DNA from: a virus
Taxonomy: Duplodnaviria; Caudoviricetes
Virus record (IMG/VR): IMGVR_UViG_3300037484_000333
Span: 8,635-72,634 of that record
Strand: one strand, 5' to 3'
DNA length: 64,000 bases
The translations under genes and the position numbers were made by a program. The notes below the pieces were generated by a model that was not told the origin of the DNA, did not search any database, and saw only the letters and a list, made by a program, of their open reading frames with translations. Positions 35,905 to 49,343 of the stretch are shown here, in pieces (position 1 is the first letter of the stretch; each line of letters starts with the position of its first letter).

Positions 35905-36468
35905 CTAGCAACGCGAGTTGCCGCAACCCCAGCATTTTAGGCAACCTTCTTCGTGGACCATAATAGACCCACACTCTGGACAACACACACCGGAGCTATT
36001 ACGTATCGGCACGATCAGTGTCTCTATAGTGGTTTCACCTGGTGGAGGTGGGGGAGAATCGAACTCCCCGTCCTGAAGAGGGTTAGCCCCGTACTCCGAG
36101 ACATCTTCTTCAGTCTTCCTTTCACCCCCAAGAAACCTTCGCTCAAGCCACTGAGCAATGTAGTCTAGTATACTAGTCGCCTTCGGAATATCAGGGTTAC
36201 TAGTCAATCCAGCAGGGTCATACCGAGTCTGTTTGAACTTCCGCGTTATGTCTTCCAGTGGGACGTGGTACTGTAAGGCTATCGAAACCATGATAGCGAA
36301 GGCGTCCACCAACCCGCTGACTGTTGACCCCTGCTTACTTACAAATACAAAGAGTTCTCCTGGTGTGCCATCCTCGAACAACCCTACTATAAGGTAGCCT
36401 GACTGGTCTGCTATTTTGAACTTATGTGTAACACTGTTTCTGTCAGCCGGTAGCCTCTTCCTCTTCGT
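35905..36468 (-). CDS. Stand-alone class II RNR C-terminal (TSCPD/NrdJb-like) domain with Zn ribbon, predicted ACG start
   Basis: KRKRLPADRNSVTHKFKI...GYLIVGLFEDGTPGELF...SKQGS...SILDYI...CPECG...EEGCLKCWGCGNSRC; in-frame TGA three codons before ACG. Confidence 0.75.
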   Translation of the reverse strand, partial: TKRKRLPADRNSVTHKFKIADQSGYLIVGLFEDGTPGELFVFVSKQGSTVSGLVDAFAIMVSIALQYHVPLEDITRKFKQTRYDPAGLTSNPDIPKATSILDYIAQWLERRFLGGERKTEEDVSEYGANPLQDGEFDSPPPPPGETTIETLIVPIRNSSGVCCPECGSIMVHEEGCLKCWGCGNSRC

Positions 36469-40719: not shown

Positions 40720-41211
40720 CTATTGATGGCAGTTACAACTGCAATTGAAGCCATCTACACAATGGCAGGGGCAGTCGCAGGTATCGTCGTCGTAGCACCC
40801 ACACCTCTCACAGGTGGGCTCCTCTTCCTCCTCCTCTTCATCCTCGTCGTCAGTTGGGTTGGGAAGTTCTCCACGAGGTTCCAGACCATCCGACCGACCA
40901 CCACCTACTGGGAAGCTGGCTGAGTCTGCGTCAGTTCGATTCCACACCCTCAGCACGTCAAGATGACGCAGTAGGGTACCAGTACAGACGTACCGCCCAC
41001 CCACACTGAGACGGTCACCACTGTATAGGATGCCCAGCCTCTCCAGTATAGTGCTAATCCAGGCGTCCCGCCAAGGCATGACCAACTCTATAGTGGGCTG
41101 GTTCAGGCGCGCCACGTAGACTGTGATCATCCTATCGTCGTTGGGCCTATCGTTAGGCCTGTACTGCATGGCTGGACGGGCTGCAGTATAAGGTGCAGGA
41201 TCATTCGTCAT
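40720..41211 (-). CDS. Ubl-like domain plus acidic linker plus 10-Cys metal-binding tail
   Basis: ITVYVARLNQPTIEL...ISTILERLGI...LRHLDVLRV resembles the di-Ubl units; FPVGGG; DDEDEEEEEEE; CERCGC...CDCPCHC...CSCNCHQ. Confidence 0.55.
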   Translation of the reverse strand: MTNDPAPYTAARPAMQYRPNDRPNDDRMITVYVARLNQPTIELVMPWRDAWISTILERLGILYSGDRLSVGGRYVCTGTLLRHLDVLRVWNRTDADSASFPVGGGRSDGLEPRGELPNPTDDEDEEEEEEEPTCERCGCYDDDTCDCPCHCVDGFNCSCNCHQ

Positions 41212-41881
41212 TACCAACTCCCCATGAGTTGACTATGCTGCGAAGGGTCTTGAGATTCTGTATGTACTCTCCCCAACACTCCTCCTTCCTAGCGAACGCG
41301 GCTATCCTGCTGGTGATAACACCTCCAATCACAAAGGGACAGTAGATCACAGACGAGTTGGTACATGGCCTACCGTCCTTACCCTGGTCACCATATAGTG
41401 AGCCTTCATACTTGTCTACGTGGTCTGGGTCACAGGGATTGACTGCGTAGACCCTTAAGTCTTCCCCATCCATACGCCCATCGACGTACAGGGGGTAGTT
41501 AGGGTCATACTTCACAGCCTGCCAGATTTCACTCCTGACAGCCATTGAGTCAACCCCAGAGATGATGACCCCAGGTCGCAGTTTGGTATCAGGGAACCTC
41601 CCATCAACTGCCAGTATGTTGACTGATGATAGATGAGCCAGCTCACGCGCCAACAGAACTACCTTGAGTTCGCCGACTCCATCTGGTGGGTACAAGACCT
41701 GGTTAGGTACGTTGTGGGCCTCTACCCTGTCGAAGTCGATGACCATTAGGTCCTTTACACCCATCTTGGCGACTGCTAAGGCGGTAGGCGAACCTATGCC
41801 ACCTGCCCCGACTATGGTGACTGGAAAGTCGAGTAGGTCAACCTGGACTACGTCTTGTTGCCTCGAATAGTCTATTGCCAA
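41201..41881 (-). CDS. ThiF/MoeB/E1-like activating enzyme
   Basis: YSRQ, VGAGGIGS, DFDRVEAHNVPNQ, SGVDSM..R, VDGRM, candidate catalytic PCT. Confidence 0.9.
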   Translation of the reverse strand: MAIDYSRQQDVVQVDLLDFPVTIVGAGGIGSPTALAVAKMGVKDLMVIDFDRVEAHNVPNQVLYPPDGVGELKVVLLARELAHLSSVNILAVDGRFPDTKLRPGVIISGVDSMAVRSEIWQAVKYDPNYPLYVDGRMDGEDLRVYAVNPCDPDHVDKYEGSLYGDQGKDGRPCTNSSVIYCPFVIGGVITSRIAAFARKEECWGEYIQNLKTLRSIVNSWGVGNDE

Positions 41882-41891
41882 GTACTACCTC

Positions 41892-42710
41892 CTAATGTTT
41901 GTCAAGGAAGGTCTGAAACGGGTCGTCACTGTCACGTCGCTTACCCTTCTTGCCTTTGTTACGTGGGTTACCCCGCTTGTAGGCATCGGCCTTGCTAGTT
42001 GACCTATCTATGCGGATGACCTCTCCATCCACACAGTTAGCGGCCACTTTGGCTAGCGCAGCCTCCACGTCTCTGGCCTTACGGGTATTAGGGTGGAGGC
42101 CAGAGCTGTAGTCGTCCTTAGATACGTTAGCCGAAATACTCTTCCCAATCGGGCCAAAAGGGGTTTGAGGTATTACCACCTTCCGCTCCCTGACCTTCTG
42201 CTTGACCTCCTCGGCACACTCCTCGTCCACATCCATTGCGGGGTATAGAACAGTCAGGTCAAACTCTTCCTCGACGGCAGACGTACCGCCCAGGCATTTG
42301 GGTAGCGTGGCTATGCCGTATACCGATCCCTTCCAGTCGTTAGCCTTATTCCCTACCAGGTAGGCGAACCAAGGAACAGTCTGCCCTACCATTTGTTCCA
42401 TAGTGGTACGGTCTGTCTGGCTCCAGAAGCAGGCAGTGTGGGCGTGGCTATGCCACCAAAGGCGCAGCTCAGTAGGGTCACCGCCTTCCTCCATCCACTG
42501 CTGGATGTACTCGGCTATTGGAGTGGTATCTAGCTCAGTACCACCTGCACTACACTCCTGGTCAAATAGGACGACCTTGGTTATTACTAACCTTCCGTCT
42601 ATCTCCTTTACGTGGCCGAGGCCAGATACTTCCCCAGTGGCGTGCTTGATGTAGGATCGGAGCCTAGAGTATGGCTCCAACTCTATGTATACGTTGGCTT
42701 TGGTTGCCAA
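41892..42710 (-). CDS. JAB/MPN+ isopeptidase
   Basis: GEVSGLG...WWHSHAHTACFWSQTD matches E-xn-H-x-H-x7-S-x2-D. Confidence 0.9.
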   Translation of the reverse strand: MATKANVYIELEPYSRLRSYIKHATGEVSGLGHVKEIDGRLVITKVVLFDQECSAGGTELDTTPIAEYIQQWMEEGGDPTELRLWWHSHAHTACFWSQTDRTTMEQMVGQTVPWFAYLVGNKANDWKGSVYGIATLPKCLGGTSAVEEEFDLTVLYPAMDVDEECAEEVKQKVRERKVVIPQTPFGPIGKSISANVSKDDYSSGLHPNTRKARDVEAALAKVAANCVDGEVIRIDRSTSKADAYKRGNPRNKGKKGKRRDSDDPFQTFLDKH

Positions 42711-46681: not shown

Positions 46682-48343
46682 CTACTCCTTACTGAAGTCT
46701 GAGATCAACTGTGGTGTGGCTGTATCAAACCCTACCACATCCAACATACCAGCGTCATTGGGGTCTGCCAGTGTGAAGCCGTTGGATGTCATAGCCACAA
46801 CCACCAGCTTAGCCGGTATCCCAGTCTTCTTGCGGTACAGTTGGAGTGCCTGGAATGGGTGGAGGTCGCCAGCCCAGGTCTCGTCATCAGTGTAGATCAC
46901 GAAGGTGTCAACCTCAATACCTTCCTTAGCTGCCCACACCATGGGCAACGCACAGTCAGTTCCACCAAAGTTCTGGTCACTGGTCTTCTTCATGGCTGAT
47001 ACCAAGGTATCTTTGGCTGTGATGCCGAGGTTCTTGAAGGTTGTAGAGAACCCCATAGTGTAGTAGTTGGGTTCCGTCCTAGCGGTTACTAATGCCATAG
47101 CGGTCGCACCACGTGCTGGTGTCAGACTTGGTATGCCTGCTATTTCACCCCAAGCCATAGAGCCTGACACGTCCAGGGCCAGCAATGTACGCTTACCCGT
47201 AGGCTCCACATTCCCAAAGGCTAGGTAGAACGCATGGTCTAGGGCGTCTACTATCTGAGGTATAGGCTTCCACTCCAGCTTCCCGCGCTCACCATGACCT
47301 TGGCTGTAAGTACCTAGCGCGGCTAACACAGCTACCGGGTGGATGCGTGCGGCCTTAATAGCCTCTTGGTTGGTGAGTCGGTCAACCACTATCTTCGCGT
47401 CTTCAGACATTGGCTTGAGACAACCATTGGCTGTCATGCGGCCAAGGTTACGAAGAGTGGCCGTCATTGGCAGGTTGGGTAGAAGGGCTGACCATACTGC
47501 TGGGTGCTTGAGTTCCTCAGTTGGGATCATCTCCCAGGTTACTACCTTGGAGTGGGCGTTGATGAGCATCTTGGTCGCCGCTTCACCCTTGACCTGTTGC
47601 AAGGCCTCAAAGGCTATGATAACCTCAGGCCACTCACTGCCCCACACTTCCTTGTATGTGCTGACCACCCCCTTACGGTCAACCGTCCGCAGGCCATACG
47701 CTATGCTATCATCCAGGTGTCTGCACGTGACCCAACGATACAATGCGTTGTAGTTGGCCATAGGGGTAGAAGGGTGAGCAAGACGCAGCAAGTCTCTGTG
47801 AGACCACCCACCACGCTGCTGATACTTGCATAGCTGGTAGGCTAGGTCATTGGGGTTATGCATACCATACCAGTGTTGGATAGCCTTACGCAGTACGCTA
47901 CCCCAACCCCTGAGGTTCTTGCAACACTCAGCGAACTGGAAGAGGTGAGTACCTATACGGCAAACGTGAGGGAGAGCTTCAGAGGCGGCACGCTTGGTTG
48001 GAAGGTCACCGAAGCTGATGCACATGGCGAGTGCGAAGATAGCCGGGTCGTTCTTAGGTGCTCGACCTGACTGGCTGATCTCAACTATACGGTTGACAGT
48101 ACGGGGTCCATCAGCCTTGATACAACGCAGTACGGCCTCGGCATTCTCAATTGTGAGCTTTTGGGCTGATGCGTAGTAGGTTCCACCTTCGGAACCCAGA
48201 ATGAGGAAGCGGTCTAGCCTGATCCAGTCATCAACGGGGAAGACGTAGCCTCCAGCATCGTTGACGACCTGGTCAGTGCGACCTGGTACGGGGGTTGATT
48301 GAGGGGTTTGCTTGATGGAGTAGTGCTCGGAGTATAGAGACAA
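46682..48343 (-). CDS. rsr: Ro60/Rsr TROVE-domain RNA-binding protein
   Basis: QVVNDAGGYVF..DDWIRLDRFLILGSEGGTYY, RAPKNDPAIFALA, KYQQRGGWSHRDLLRLAHP, vWA DVSGSM, GGTDCALPM, YTDDETW. Confidence 0.95.
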   Translation of the reverse strand: MSLYSEHYSIKQTPQSTPVPGRTDQVVNDAGGYVFPVDDWIRLDRFLILGSEGGTYYASAQKLTIENAEAVLRCIKADGPRTVNRIVEISQSGRAPKNDPAIFALAMCISFGDLPTKRAASEALPHVCRIGTHLFQFAECCKNLRGWGSVLRKAIQHWYGMHNPNDLAYQLCKYQQRGGWSHRDLLRLAHPSTPMANYNALYRWVTCRHLDDSIAYGLRTVDRKGVVSTYKEVWGSEWPEVIIAFEALQQVKGEAATKMLINAHSKVVTWEMIPTEELKHPAVWSALLPNLPMTATLRNLGRMTANGCLKPMSEDAKIVVDRLTNQEAIKAARIHPVAVLAALGTYSQGHGERGKLEWKPIPQIVDALDHAFYLAFGNVEPTGKRTLLALDVSGSMAWGEIAGIPSLTPARGATAMALVTARTEPNYYTMGFSTTFKNLGITAKDTLVSAMKKTSDQNFGGTDCALPMVWAAKEGIEVDTFVIYTDDETWAGDLHPFQALQLYRKKTGIPAKLVVVAMTSNGFTLADPNDAGMLDVVGFDTATPQLISDFSKE

Positions 48344-48399
48344 AGGCCGTACCTCCCTTAAGACGCTATGGTAGTACGGTCCTTTGCTTAGACGCTATG
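48339..48399 (-). promoter_or_regulatory. 5'-UTR hairpin occluding part of the rsr SD and the start codon
   Basis: CAAAGG-A-CCGTAC pairs with GTACGG-CCTTTG, which covers the SD end and the TTG; 10-nt direct repeat CATAGCGTCT. Confidence 0.5.
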
Positions 48400-48471
48400 A
48401 TACTAAGTCATCGGCCGCACCACCCATCCATCATTTCGTCCTGTCAGTAGTCCGCCGACCACTAATAGGAA

Positions 48472-48547
48472 AAGGCGCGAGGGGTAAGTAGTTGCTATAC
48501 GGAATATACACCAGATAACCGTGTAGCTTCGACCCCTCGCGCGCCTT
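48472..48547 (-). ncRNA. Y-RNA-like ncRNA 1
   Basis: GCGAGGGGU-C-GAAG...ACUAC-UU-ACCCCUCGC: terminal stem with bulged C and G.U/A-U pairs, inner stem GCUACACGG/CCGUAUAGC. Confidence 0.7.
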
Positions 48548-48548
48548 A

Positions 48549-48619
48549 ATACGGGCAAGTAATGTTAGAGGGCGTTTATCCTAAAGAAGTATAGATAACC
48601 CTCTAACTTCGGCCCGTAT
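48549..48619 (-). ncRNA. Y-RNA-like ncRNA 2
   Basis: AUACGGGC-C-GAAG UUAGAGGG...CCCUCUAAC AUUAC-UU-GCCCGUAU. Confidence 0.75.
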
Positions 48620-48631
48620 GTTGTTTGCTAA

Positions 48632-48758
48632 GGGTGAGCAAGTAATTGAAGCAGGGTTGCACCTGTTTGATGGCAGGTGTTGTGGGTTTCGACCCCACTG
48701 CTAACGCGCTTGCACACGTAAGCTTTTTGCCAAATAACCCTACGACTTCGGCCCACCC
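48632..48758 (-). ncRNA. Y-RNA-like ncRNA 3 with tRNA-like internal domain
   Basis: GGGUGGGC-C-GAAG...UAC-UU-GCUCACCC; contains a T-arm-like GUGGG-GUCGAAA-CCCAC and a CACCUG/CAGGUG hairpin. Confidence 0.7.
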
Positions 48759-48772
48759 CATTATTTACTGGA

Positions 48773-48913
48773 GGCTGCACAAGCGGCAGAGACCCAATTC
48801 TGCCAAGGCTGTGGCTCATGGTACGGCGCGCGCATTACGGAAGTTACTGTAGCCATGTTTGTTAGGGAGGGGGCAACCTCTCTCAAACTCTACCGTCCAC
48901 CACCTGTGCAGCC
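48773..48913 (-). ncRNA. Unclassified structured RNA inside the Y array
   Basis: Closing stem GGCUGCACAGGUGG/CCGCUUGUGCAGCC with internal hairpins; lacks the bulged-C motif. Confidence 0.45.
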
Positions 48914-48922
48914 ACAATATGG

Positions 48923-48983
48923 GGCGTAGGCAAGTAGTGACGGACGGGTTAATGCAGTTAACCATCCGTCTTCGGCCTACGCC
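48923..48983 (-). ncRNA. Y-RNA-like ncRNA 4
   Basis: GGCGUAGGC-C-GAAG ACGGA...UCCGUC ACUAC-UU-GCCUACGCC. Confidence 0.75.
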
Positions 48984-49023
48984 ATGTAAAGTTAGGTATT
49001 GACTAGTATTAACTACCCATATC

Positions 49024-49146
49024 TTGGTAGAAGGTAAGCCCATATACACCAGGGCAGGAGTTGCACCTGCCAAGCACAGCGAAACACTGCGGGTATACTT
49101 TTCCCCCACTGGTCTTTTGGGCGTGCACCCCTTTCCCTTCTACCAA
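49024..49146 (-). ncRNA. tRNA-like domain on a long stem
   Basis: 11-bp stem UUGGUAGAAGG/CCUUCUACCAA enclosing D-like, anticodon-like and T-like (GCAGG-UGCAACU-CCUGC) arms. Confidence 0.55.
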
Positions 49147-49157
49147 AGTATGGAGAG

Positions 49158-49343
49158 TTAATCCCTGTTAAGACTTGGCCACTCGGCGAAGGCGAACCAC
49201 AAGAAGGCTAGGATATTGACTAGTGGAATGGGGAATAGTACCCCTAACCATGGATTGTATCCAGCCTTCTGAAGTATCATGCCCCATATTGCGGCCATAC
49301 CAACTGCTATTAGGATGAACAGTACTACCATCAGAACGACCAA
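49158..49343 (-). CDS. Small two-TM protein (DUF805-like)
   Basis: IWGMILQKAGYNPWLGVLFPIPLVNI...AFAEWP. Confidence 0.6.
   Translation of the reverse strand: MVVLMVVLFILIAVGMAAIWGMILQKAGYNPWLGVLFPIPLVNILAFLWFAFAEWPSLNRD

What the first reader, a model, noticed from the sequence alone, without database searches (positions are those of the whole stretch)
48472..48983. Array of at least four Y-RNA-like genes directly upstream of phage Ro60
Four elements (48472-48547, 48549-48619, 48632-48758, 48923-48983; minus strand, same as rsr) share one architecture although their stems differ in sequence: a terminal helix ending GGC/GGU, a bulged C, GAAG, a variable inner domain, then UAC-UU-GCC/ACC. The differing but paired stems act as compensatory covariation within one genome. 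The helix matches the established Ro60-binding element of Y RNAs (GUC-C-GA paired with UUGAC; compare human Y1 GGUCCGAAG...CUUGAC). Ro60 loci usually carry one or a few Y RNAs. A tandem array with different effector loops suggests a modular set of Ro60 RNPs, either tethering different nucleases/helicases or acting as decoys.
Basis: partly seen in the sequence, partly recalled or inferred. Interest (0 to 1): 0.88.

Follow-up and report, generated by a model that had tools for sequence, protein, structure and literature searches.

The report
Four Y-RNA genes beside phage Ro60
An uncultivated phage carries four small structured RNA genes of the Y-RNA type packed directly in front of its Ro60 gene; the RNAs are real and well supported, but similar arrays of up to seven turn out to be common next to Ro60 in other phages, so this is a good new example of a known system and not a new kind of system.

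Summary
Four minus-strand elements (48472-48547, 48549-48621, 48631-48760, 48923-48985) lie directly upstream of a full-length Ro60 gene with TROVE and vWA domains (46682-48343). All four share one architecture: lower stem, bulged C, GA:UU, internal loop, upper stem, then UUAUC/UUAUU/UUAAC. A covariance model seeded on two copies finds the other two. It finds nothing else in the 72.6-kb virus record.

Both helices covary. Within the four copies, 73 of 76 cells pair and 11 of 19 pairs show compensatory changes. Across 60 relatives, 93% of cells pair and 17 of 19 pairs covary.

One copy reaches the Rfam gathering score of the nematode stem-bulge RNA family, which the literature treats as Y-RNA homologues. 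The 5' motif matches the D. radiodurans Y RNA consensus. No copy hits the Rfam Y_RNA, YrlA or Deinococcus_Y_RNA models.

Phage Ro60 with upstream Y-like RNAs is already known from mycobacteriophage YrlA and Thermus phage phiLo Yrl1/Yrl2. In 80 IMG/VR Ro60 loci the model found 146 elements, all on the Ro60 strand, and 12 loci carry four to seven. The array is therefore a new member of a known kind. Expression, Ro60 binding and effector tethering are inferred, not shown. Other first-stage notes of this scan cover this same stretch.

The parts
46682..48343 (-). Ro60 (Rsr) gene, 553 aa. It has a TTG start preceded by GGGAGG.
   Evidence: Pfam gives vWA_Ro60 at 2.6e-64 and TROVE at 2.7e-52. PDB sequence search matches human and Xenopus Ro60 and D. 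radiodurans Rsr at E 1e-127 to 1e-133 over the full length.
48472..48547 (-). Y-like RNA 1. It has a long GC-rich lower stem, GGUC-GAAG, the upper stem GCUACACGG/CCGUAUAGC, UUAUC and a 16-nt loop.
   Evidence: Fold z is -4.3. It scores 38.6 bits with R1, of which it is not a seed, and 56.5 bits with R2.
48549..48621 (-). Y-like RNA 2. It has the lower stem AUACGGGC/GCCCGUAU, a bulged C, GA:UU, the upper stem GUUAGAGGG/CCCUCUAAC, UUAUC and a pyrimidine-rich loop.
   Evidence: Fold z is -5.8. It hits Rfam RF01656 (nematode sbRNA) at 38.1 bits against a gathering score of 38. R2 gives 66.5 bits.
48631..48760 (-). Y-like RNA 3, the long form. It has the same two stems, and its inner domain carries three hairpins. 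One has a GCAA loop. One resembles a tRNA T arm (GUGGG-GUCGAAA-CCCAC). The third lies in the position of the YrlA 'acceptor' hairpin. There is no D arm.
   Evidence: Fold z is -3.8. It scores 29.3 bits with R1, of which it is not a seed, and 44.6 bits with R2. RF01656 gives 18.8 bits, below threshold.
48923..48985 (-). Y-like RNA 4. It has the lower stem GCGUAGGC/GCCUACGC, a bulged C, GA:UU and the upper stem GACGGAUGG/CCGUCCGUC. UUAAC replaces UUAUC and is paired into an extended hairpin.
   Evidence: Fold z is -6.1. R2 gives 59.6 bits.
48773..48913 (-). Structured 141-nt spacer between Y-like RNAs 4 and 3, closed by a stem of about 17 bp. It is not Y-like. It probably lies on the same transcript, and its class is unknown.
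   Evidence: Fold z is only -1.8. There is no Rfam hit and no R2 hit. blastn finds no relative in 216 fetched loci.
48344..48471 (-). Leader between the array and the Ro60 start codon. It forms two stable hairpins, and an alternative pairing could cover the ribosome-binding site and the TTG start.
   Evidence: Fold energy is -50 kcal/mol with z -4.5. It is not Y-like by R2. The regulatory role is inference only.
49010..49146 (-). Candidate structured RNA at the head of the array. It has an 11-bp terminal stem (UUGGUAGAAGG/CCUUCUACCAA) and a T-arm-like hairpin (GGCAGG-UGCAACU-CCUGCC). It lacks the bulged-C Ro60 site.
   Evidence: Fold z is -1.8. There is no R2 hit on the minus strand even with filters off and no Rfam hit. 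Alignment to element 3 is weak. It is not counted as a Y RNA.

Best explanation
The four elements are genes for Y RNAs, the small non-coding partners of Ro60, belonging to the phage's own Ro60.

Shown here: they share the conserved Y-RNA helix, which is a lower stem, a bulged C, G-A paired with U-U, an internal loop and an upper stem followed by UUAUC. They lie on the Ro60 strand directly upstream of the gene. Both helices are kept by compensatory changes.

Inferred from the sequence: spacers of 1 to 12 nt leave no room for separate promoters. The array, including the 141-nt spacer RNA, is probably made as one precursor that may continue into the Ro60 mRNA, and host RNases then cut it into RNAs of 60 to 130 nt.

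Inferred by analogy with D. radiodurans, Salmonella, M. smegmatis and Thermus phage phiLo: each RNA binds the outer face of the Ro60 ring through the bulged helix. The long RNA 3 has a partly tRNA-like inner domain and is the candidate tether to an exoribonuclease such as host PNPase. The three short hairpin RNAs resemble YrlB and Yrn2. They more likely gate or occupy Ro60, or build alternative RNPs, and so reshape RNA decay or quality control in the infected cell.
For: The gene is a full-length Ro60. Four elements carry GGYCGAAG...GGUUAW...AYUACUUGCC, and they occur only here in the virus record.

Model R1 recovers the two non-seed copies at E 8e-8 and 3e-5 and nothing else. Strand specificity is clear, at 44.6 to 66.5 bits on the minus strand against at most 9.8 on the plus strand.

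Covariation is strong at three levels:
- 19 sequences: 95.5% paired, 14 of 19 pairs compensatory, 0 of 500 shuffles as high.
- 60 sequences: 93.4% paired, 17 of 19 pairs compensatory, against 35 to 48% paired in the slid controls.
- The four copies alone: 73 of 76 cells paired.

Rfam RF01656 is reached at gathering score by element 2 and by relatives in other Ro60 loci at 38.5, 44.3 and 41.5 bits. The Rfam Deinococcus_Y_RNA consensus begins GGgCCgaAGuGGuCaCGGUUaC, the same 5' motif.

In 80 viral Ro60 loci all 146 model hits lie on the Ro60 strand, most of them just upstream of the gene.

The literature supplies the precedents. The GNCGAAN0-1G motif, two or more Y RNAs per species, and YrlA plus YrlB processed from one precursor upstream of rsr are in PMC4201824. 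phiLo Ro60 binds two upstream Yrl RNAs and forms a complex with host PNPase in vitro (PMC12135203).
Against: There is no expression, processing or binding data for this uncultivated phage. The consensus scan found no minus-strand promoter or terminator.

No element hits Rfam Y_RNA (RF00019), YrlA (RF02553) or Deinococcus_Y_RNA (RF01053), even at E up to 10. The sbRNA hit is only 0.1 bit above threshold, and most of the model's loop positions are deleted in the alignment.

The three short RNAs have loops of 14 to 26 nt, which is little surface for an effector. RNA 3 lacks the D arm that defines YrlA-type tRNA mimicry. The covariation alignments were fitted to the model, which inflates pairing somewhat.
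Confidence: 0.8

Rival explanations
1. The elements act as decoys or sponges. The phage over-produces minimal Y RNAs to titrate the host's own Rsr/Ro60, or PNPase, away from its normal substrates. They would not serve mainly as adaptors for the phage Ro60.
For: Three of the four elements are minimal hairpins that keep only the Ro60-binding helix and UUAUC. Copy number is expanded here and in 12 of 80 viral loci. phiLo Yrl RNAs bind host PNPase on their own in vitro (PMC12135203).
Against: The array is always linked to a phage-encoded Ro60 and lies on its strand, which points to a cognate partnership. The host is unknown, so it is also unknown whether it has an Rsr at all.
Confidence: 0.12
2. 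The elements are cis-acting sites in the 5' leader of the Ro60 mRNA. Ro60 would bind its own leader to autoregulate translation or stability, and no stable free Y RNAs would be released.
For: The elements sit back to back with 1 to 12 nt spacers directly upstream of the gene, with no predicted promoter or terminator between them. A stable leader structure with z -4.5 abuts the ribosome-binding site.
Against: In other viral loci the same elements form arrays downstream of Ro60, for example L136/L167 and L188, or sit 1 to 2 kb away. That does not fit a leader role. In M. smegmatis the co-transcribed YrlA and YrlB are processed into stable Rsr-bound RNAs (PMC4201824).
Confidence: 0.06
3. The elements are chance hairpins, a repeat family, terminators, or parts of small protein-coding ORFs (48403-48558, 48603-48761, 48816-49109).
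For: The mechanical ORF list has small ORFs over the region. A generic stem-CGA...UU-stem shape is common by chance.
Against: Motif clustering, model E-values, compensatory changes in both helices, and recurrence next to Ro60 in dozens of unrelated viral contigs all argue against chance. ORF 48816-49109, the only one of the three searched, has no Pfam or PHROG hit. No U-tracts follow the stems.
Confidence: 0.02

Closest known systems
D. radiodurans Y RNAs Yrn1 and Yrn2 (Rfam RF01053)
   Same: They are encoded upstream of rsr on the same strand, with several small RNAs at the locus. The 5' strand motif GGgCCgaAG...CGGUUaC in the Rfam consensus is the same as in the window's elements. Yrn1 has a GNRA-type hairpin followed by a T arm, like element 3. 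[quoted passage not shown]
   Different: No window element reaches any score with RF01053 at E up to 10. There are four copies here, and three of them are minimal. The carrier is a phage, not a cell.
YrlA and YrlB of Salmonella and M. smegmatis, and YrlA of mycobacteriophages (Rfam RF02553; PMC4201824)
   Same: They carry the GNCGAAN0-1G motif near the 5' end and lie within 4 kb of Ro60 on the same strand. The pattern is one long RNA with a tRNA-like domain plus hairpin-type RNAs, and in M. smegmatis they are processed from one precursor. Element 3 has hairpins in the YrlA order V, T, AS.
   Different: Element 3 lacks the D arm, and there is no RF02553 hit. The published cases describe one or two RNAs per locus, against four here. 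Model R2 finds 3 weak hits upstream of Ro60 in mycobacteriophage JayJay and 2 in Gordonia phage Cashline.
Thermus phage phiLo Ro60 with Yrl1 and Yrl2 (PMC12135203)
   Same: It is a phage-encoded Ro60 with Y-like RNAs that carry a CGAA motif directly upstream of the gene. It is the only phage case with binding shown, by EMSA and cryo-EM, including a complex with host PNPase.
   Different: phiLo has two RNAs, not four. This phage is unrelated to any cultured phage: its DNA polymerase is at most 29% identical and its Ro60 at most 47% identical. The phiLo RNAs were not compared here by sequence.
Metazoan Y RNAs and nematode stem-bulge RNAs (Rfam RF00019, RF01656)
   Same: The layout is the same: lower stem, bulged C, short paired step, internal loop, upper stem, then UUAUC at the start of the loop. 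Element 2 and three relatives reach the RF01656 gathering score. UUAUC is described as conserved in sbRNAs and vertebrate Y RNAs (PMC4726728). Several paralogues clustered at one locus is also a metazoan feature, which I state from my own knowledge.
   Different: There is no RF00019 hit. The upper-stem GUG/CAC replication motif is absent. The loops are far shorter. Transcription must be bacterial and polycistronic, not by Pol III. Whether the resemblance reflects homology or convergence on Ro60 binding is open.

Membership tests
Bacterial/phage Y RNA (Ro60-associated ncRNA, sensu Chen et al. 2014) | Encoded within about 4 kb of a Ro60 ortholog and on the same strand | tested here: met
   All four lie 129 to 642 nt upstream of the Ro60 start on the minus strand.
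Bacterial/phage Y RNA (Ro60-associated ncRNA, sensu Chen et al. 2014) | GNCGAAN0-1G motif near the 5' end, within a stem formed by the 5' and 3' ends | tested here: met
   GGUCGAAG or GGCCGAAG is present in all four. The terminal stems measure at least 8 bp by the fixed-window measure. The bulged C and GA:UU are present.
Bacterial/phage Y RNA (Ro60-associated ncRNA, sensu Chen et al. 2014) | Helices maintained by selection (covariation) | tested here: met
   17 of 19 pairs are compensatory in 60 sequences, and 11 of 19 within the four copies.
Bacterial/phage Y RNA (Ro60-associated ncRNA, sensu Chen et al. 2014) | Physical binding to Ro60, and Ro60-dependent accumulation as a discrete small RNA | not testable with these tools
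   This needs Northern blots or RNA-seq, co-immunoprecipitation and EMSA.
YrlA (Rfam RF02553; tRNA-mimic Y RNA) | Inner domain with T arm, acceptor-like hairpin and D arm; score at or above the Rfam gathering score of 69 | tested here: not met
   There is no RF02553 hit at E up to 10. Element 3 has a T-arm-like hairpin and two other hairpins but no D arm, whereas long elements in other viral loci show clear T and D arms.
Deinococcus_Y_RNA (Rfam RF01053) | Score at or above the gathering score of 80 | tested here: not met
   There is no hit at E up to 10 in the window. A related metagenome element reaches 57.7 bits, and the model consensus shares the 5' motif.
Metazoan Y_RNA (Rfam RF00019) | Score at or above the gathering score | tested here: not met
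   There is no hit at E up to 10.
Nematode stem-bulge RNA ceN72-3_ceN74-2 (Rfam RF01656) | Score at or above the gathering score of 38 | tested here: inconclusive
   Element 2 scores 38.1 bits, just above threshold. Element 3 scores 18.8 and elements 1 and 4 give no hit. The match rests on the two stems and GGGUUAUC, with the central model positions deleted. It shows a shared architecture, not membership of a nematode family.
Ro60 / Rsr protein | TROVE (HEAT-repeat ring) plus C-terminal vWA domain, full length | tested here: met
   Pfam gives TROVE at 2.7e-52 and vWA_Ro60 at 2.6e-64. Residues 18-551 align to solved Ro60/Rsr chains at E about 1e-130.

The most novel reading that the evidence does not exclude
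Expanded and diversified Y-RNA arrays may be a general phage strategy, with up to seven paralogues per Ro60 locus. Each paralogue would programme the phage Ro60 ring, or titrate a host factor, differently during infection. In addition, the shared stem-bulge-stem-UUAUC layout lets phage elements reach the Rfam threshold of a nematode sbRNA model. That could mean the phage/bacterial and animal Y RNAs are truly homologous and that the Ro60-Y RNA module moved as a unit. This would run against the published view that the bacterial RNAs are 'not homologous' with vertebrate Y RNAs (PMC4726728). UUAUC would then be a Ro60-RNP feature and not a motif specific to DNA replication.
Probability: 0.2. Interest if true: 0.7.

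Novelty: new member of a known kind. Interest (0 to 1): 0.4.

Why it matters
Ro60-Y RNA particles are studied as RNA quality-control and decay machines and as lupus autoantigens. What phages do with them is nearly unexplored, and only one phage Ro60 has been characterised.

This locus gives a compact, clean test set: one Ro60, three minimal Y RNAs and one long Y RNA with a partly tRNA-like domain. It could be used to ask what the helix, the UUAUC motif and the loops each contribute.

The survey made here has wider value. It shows that arrays of Y-like RNAs, always on the Ro60 strand, are common in uncultivated phages and largely unannotated. In mycobacteriophage JayJay two of the model hits overlap an annotated 'hypothetical protein'. 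It also shows that the Rfam nematode sbRNA model cross-hits these elements.

Tried and rejected
1. MAFFT alignments of whole elements (A1) and of upper hairpins alone (A2) shifted the 3' strand of the upper stem by 1 to 3 columns, and RNAalifold then saw only the lower stem. I used a four-sequence seed in one register with a hand-written structure, then let Infernal realign.

2. The exact-pattern scan of IMG/VR with GGCCGAAG-N(5-8)-GGTTAT returned more than 118 stretches. Only 10 of them held a model hit. It was useful mainly because it turned up more Ro60 loci.

3. The promoter and terminator consensus scan found nothing on the minus strand and no excess over shuffles.

4. The candidate fifth Y RNA (49010-49146) and the 141-nt RNA (48773-48913) have weak fold z-scores of -1.8. 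They have no Rfam hit, no model hit and no blastn relatives, and the alignment of the candidate to element 3 is unconvincing. I rejected both as Y RNAs, and their class is unknown.

5. The Rfam Y_RNA, YrlA and Deinococcus_Y_RNA models do not hit the window.

6. megablast of the locus against cultured phages found nothing. Sinorhizobium phage Phosso has Ro60 but no model hit.

7. The supplementary tables of Chen et al. 2014, which list phage YrlA, are not held. I could not check how many RNAs per phage they list.

8. I did not compare human Y1 directly, because no tool supplied its sequence. The comparison with metazoan Y RNAs rests on the Rfam RF01656 consensus and on PMC4726728.

Full report
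**What is there.** The window is part of an IMG/VR virus record of 72.6 kb with direct terminal repeats. On the minus strand, ORF 46682-48343 encodes a 553-aa protein. Pfam matches it to TROVE (2.7e-52) and to the Ro60 vWA domain (2.6e-64). It aligns over its full length to solved human and Xenopus Ro60 and to D. radiodurans Rsr at E about 1e-130. The neighbours on the same strand are phage-like: a family A DNA polymerase, ThiF-like and JAB-like proteins, and many small ORFs without family. The polymerase is at most 29% identical to any cultured phage and the Ro60 at most 47%. The carrier is therefore a distant, uncultivated phage.

**The observation.** Reading the minus strand shows four elements at the stated coordinates with one plan. 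A terminal stem ends in GGC or GGU. It is followed by an unpaired C, then G-A paired with U-U, then A-G opposite a 5 to 6 nt bulge (CAUUAC, AACUAC and the like). A 9-bp upper stem follows, then UUAUC (UUAUU in element 3, UUAAC in element 4) opening the loop.

- Each element folds far better than its shuffles, with z from -3.8 to -6.1.
- The composite motif GGYCGAAG-N(4-9)-GGTTAW occurs four times in the whole virus record. All four are here on the minus strand, against none for the reversed control.
- A loose structural criterion alone is not significant, with 25 hits against about 48 in shuffles. The weight lies on motif, clustering and covariation.

**Model tests.** I built a covariance model from elements 2 and 4 plus one element each from two other Ro60-bearing viral contigs.

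- It recovered the two non-seed window elements at 38.6 bits (E 8e-8) and 29.3 bits (E 3e-5), and nothing else in 64 kb on either strand.
- A second model built from 19 sequences again finds exactly four in the window and in the whole record, at 44.6 to 66.5 bits.
- With filters off, the next best hit between 48000 and 49700 is 9.8 bits on the opposite strand.

The structured RNA-like stretches at 49010-49146 and 48773-48913 were flagged by other first-stage notes of this scan. They do not match the model, have weak fold z-scores and have no relatives in the loci I held. 'At least four' is best read as four of this type.

**Covariation.**

- Among the four window copies alone, 73 of 76 cells pair, and 11 of 19 pairs show changes on both sides that keep the pair.
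- Across 19 elements, 95.5% of cells pair and 14 of 19 pairs are compensatory. No shuffle in 500 reaches the observed covariation score.
- Across 60 elements, 93.4% pair and 17 of 19 pairs are compensatory, against 35 to 48% pairing when partners are slid by 1 to 3 columns.
- These alignments were fitted to the model, which favours pairing. An independent MAFFT alignment nonetheless showed 7 of 8 lower-stem pairs compensatory.

**What it is.**

- Rfam places element 2 just above the gathering score of RF01656 (38.1 against 38). RF01656 is the nematode stem-bulge RNA family, which the literature treats as Y-RNA homologues (PMC4726728). Related elements in other Ro60 loci score 38.5, 44.3 and 41.5 bits.
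- The Rfam consensus of the D. radiodurans Y RNA begins GGgCCgaAGuGGuCaCGGUUaC, the same 5' strand as here.
- The motif fits the GNCGAAN0-1G that Chen et al. 2014 defined for bacterial Y RNAs (PMC4201824).
- Among the 60 aligned elements, 42 have UUAUC and 10 have UUACC after the upper stem.
- No window element hits RF00019, RF02553 or RF01053. Formal membership of those Rfam families is not met, although the architecture clearly matches.
- Element 3 carries three inner hairpins in the YrlA order: a variable hairpin, a T-arm-like hairpin (GUGGG-GUCGAAA-CCCAC), and a hairpin in the acceptor-like position. It has no D arm. Long elements in other viral loci show textbook T and D arms.
- Elements 1, 2 and 4 are minimal hairpins. 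[quoted passage not shown]

**How it most likely works.** The spacers between successive elements are 1 to 12 nt. Separate promoters are therefore not possible, and no promoter or terminator was predicted inside the array. I infer one precursor, possibly continuing into the Ro60 mRNA through a very stable leader (z -4.5), cut by host RNases. This matches M. smegmatis, where YrlA and YrlB are processed from one precursor upstream of rsr (PMC4201824).

By analogy with D. radiodurans and Salmonella RYPER, and with Thermus phage phiLo, each RNA should bind the phage Ro60 through the bulged helix. In phiLo, Ro60 binds two upstream Yrl RNAs and forms a complex with host PNPase in vitro (PMC12135203). 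Element 3 is the best candidate tether. The short RNAs are more likely gates, alternative RNPs or sponges. None of this is shown for this phage.

**How unusual it is.** An alignment-based scan found at least 460 IMG/VR contigs encoding Ro60 relatives, and I fetched the best 80 with 3-kb flanks. The model found 146 elements in them, every one on the Ro60 strand. Most lie just upstream of the gene, and some form arrays just downstream.

| Elements per locus | 0 | 1 | 2 | 3 | 4 | 5 | 6 | 7 |
|---|---|---|---|---|---|---|---|---|
| Number of loci | 21 | 17 | 18 | 12 | 7 | 2 | 2 | 1 |

They are lower bounds, and a few contigs were fetched twice under different locus ids. Cultured phages also show several hits: three weak ones upstream of Ro60 in mycobacteriophage JayJay and two in Gordonia phage Cashline. 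A four-gene array is thus in the upper part of a continuous distribution and is not an outlier.

The only papers on phage Y RNAs in the held library describe YrlA in 22 phages (PMC4201824) and Yrl1 and Yrl2 in phiLo (PMC12135203). I found no description of larger phage arrays.

**Verdict.** The locus is a new member of a known kind, with an expanded copy number that is itself common among uncultivated phages. The functional proposals remain inference. The more interesting open points are the role of the conserved UUAUC in a Ro60 context and whether phage/bacterial and animal Y RNAs are homologous.

Noticed in passing
window 36040-36129 (-): A 90-nt match to Rfam tmRNA at 48.3 bits against a gathering score of 47. 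It consists only of the tRNA-like ends (acceptor and T arm, with encoded CCA), and about 300 model positions of the mRNA-like and pseudoknot part are missing. It may be a phage 'mini-tmRNA' or a tRNA-like-domain mimic. It overlaps the mechanical ORF 35905-36381.
   Followed up: no
L006 3224-3336, 3574-3700, 3712-3836 (IMGVR_UViG_3300029267_002377): Upstream of two ordinary Y-like RNAs and Ro60 lie tRNA-shaped RNAs. The anticodon-arm position holds a long insert carrying GGGUCGAAUGG...GGGUUAUC and CAACUU. This looks like a YrlA-type chimera with its ends at the acceptor stem instead of at the Y stem. Rfam tRNA gives 40.5 bits with a 54-nt insert. ARAGORN calls none of them.
   Followed up: partly
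L186 (IMGVR_UViG_3300020020_000028), L167/L136, L162, L188, L154: These viral Ro60 loci carry 5 to 7 Y-like model hits, all on the Ro60 strand. In L136/L167 and L188 the whole array lies downstream of Ro60, not upstream.
   Followed up: partly
L138 2098-2444 (Mycobacterium phage JayJay, PQ449569.1): Three weak Y-like model hits lie directly upstream of the Ro-like gene (E 0.003 to 0.03). Two of them (2098-2170 and 2196-2339) overlap the annotated 'hypothetical protein' gene 234 (2130-2291), which may be a mis-called ORF over an RNA gene.
   Followed up: no
L167 4991-5131: This long Y-like RNA has its tRNA-like inner domain in the natural order D arm, anticodon-like hairpin, T arm. Most other long elements have the permuted YrlA order T, acceptor-like, D.
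   Followed up: no
window 49212-49223 (-) and 48995-49006 (-): The 12-mer CTAGTCAATAYC occurs exactly only twice in the window, both on the minus strand. One copy is about 65 nt upstream of the 49146 structure and one about 10 nt upstream of Y-like RNA 4. It may be a promoter or processing signal, and it is untested.
   Followed up: partly
window 48344-48471 (-): The leader of the Ro60 gene forms two very stable hairpins (-50 kcal/mol, z -4.5). The sequence also allows CAAAGGACCGUAC to pair with GUACGGCCUUUG over the end of the Shine-Dalgarno sequence and the TTG start, as another first-stage note proposed.
   Followed up: partly
window 41201-42710 (-): A ThiF-family E1-like protein (6e-20) and a JAB-domain protein (4.8e-5, just under the Pfam cut-off) lie a few kb downstream of Ro60. 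This is consistent with another note on a ubiquitin-like conjugation operon in this phage.
   Followed up: partly
L010 1-1600: A metagenome contig has a run of about ten tRNA genes that leads directly into YrlA-like and Deinococcus-Y-like elements (57.7 bits to RF01053) and then Ro60. Y RNAs there sit at the end of a tRNA array.
   Followed up: no
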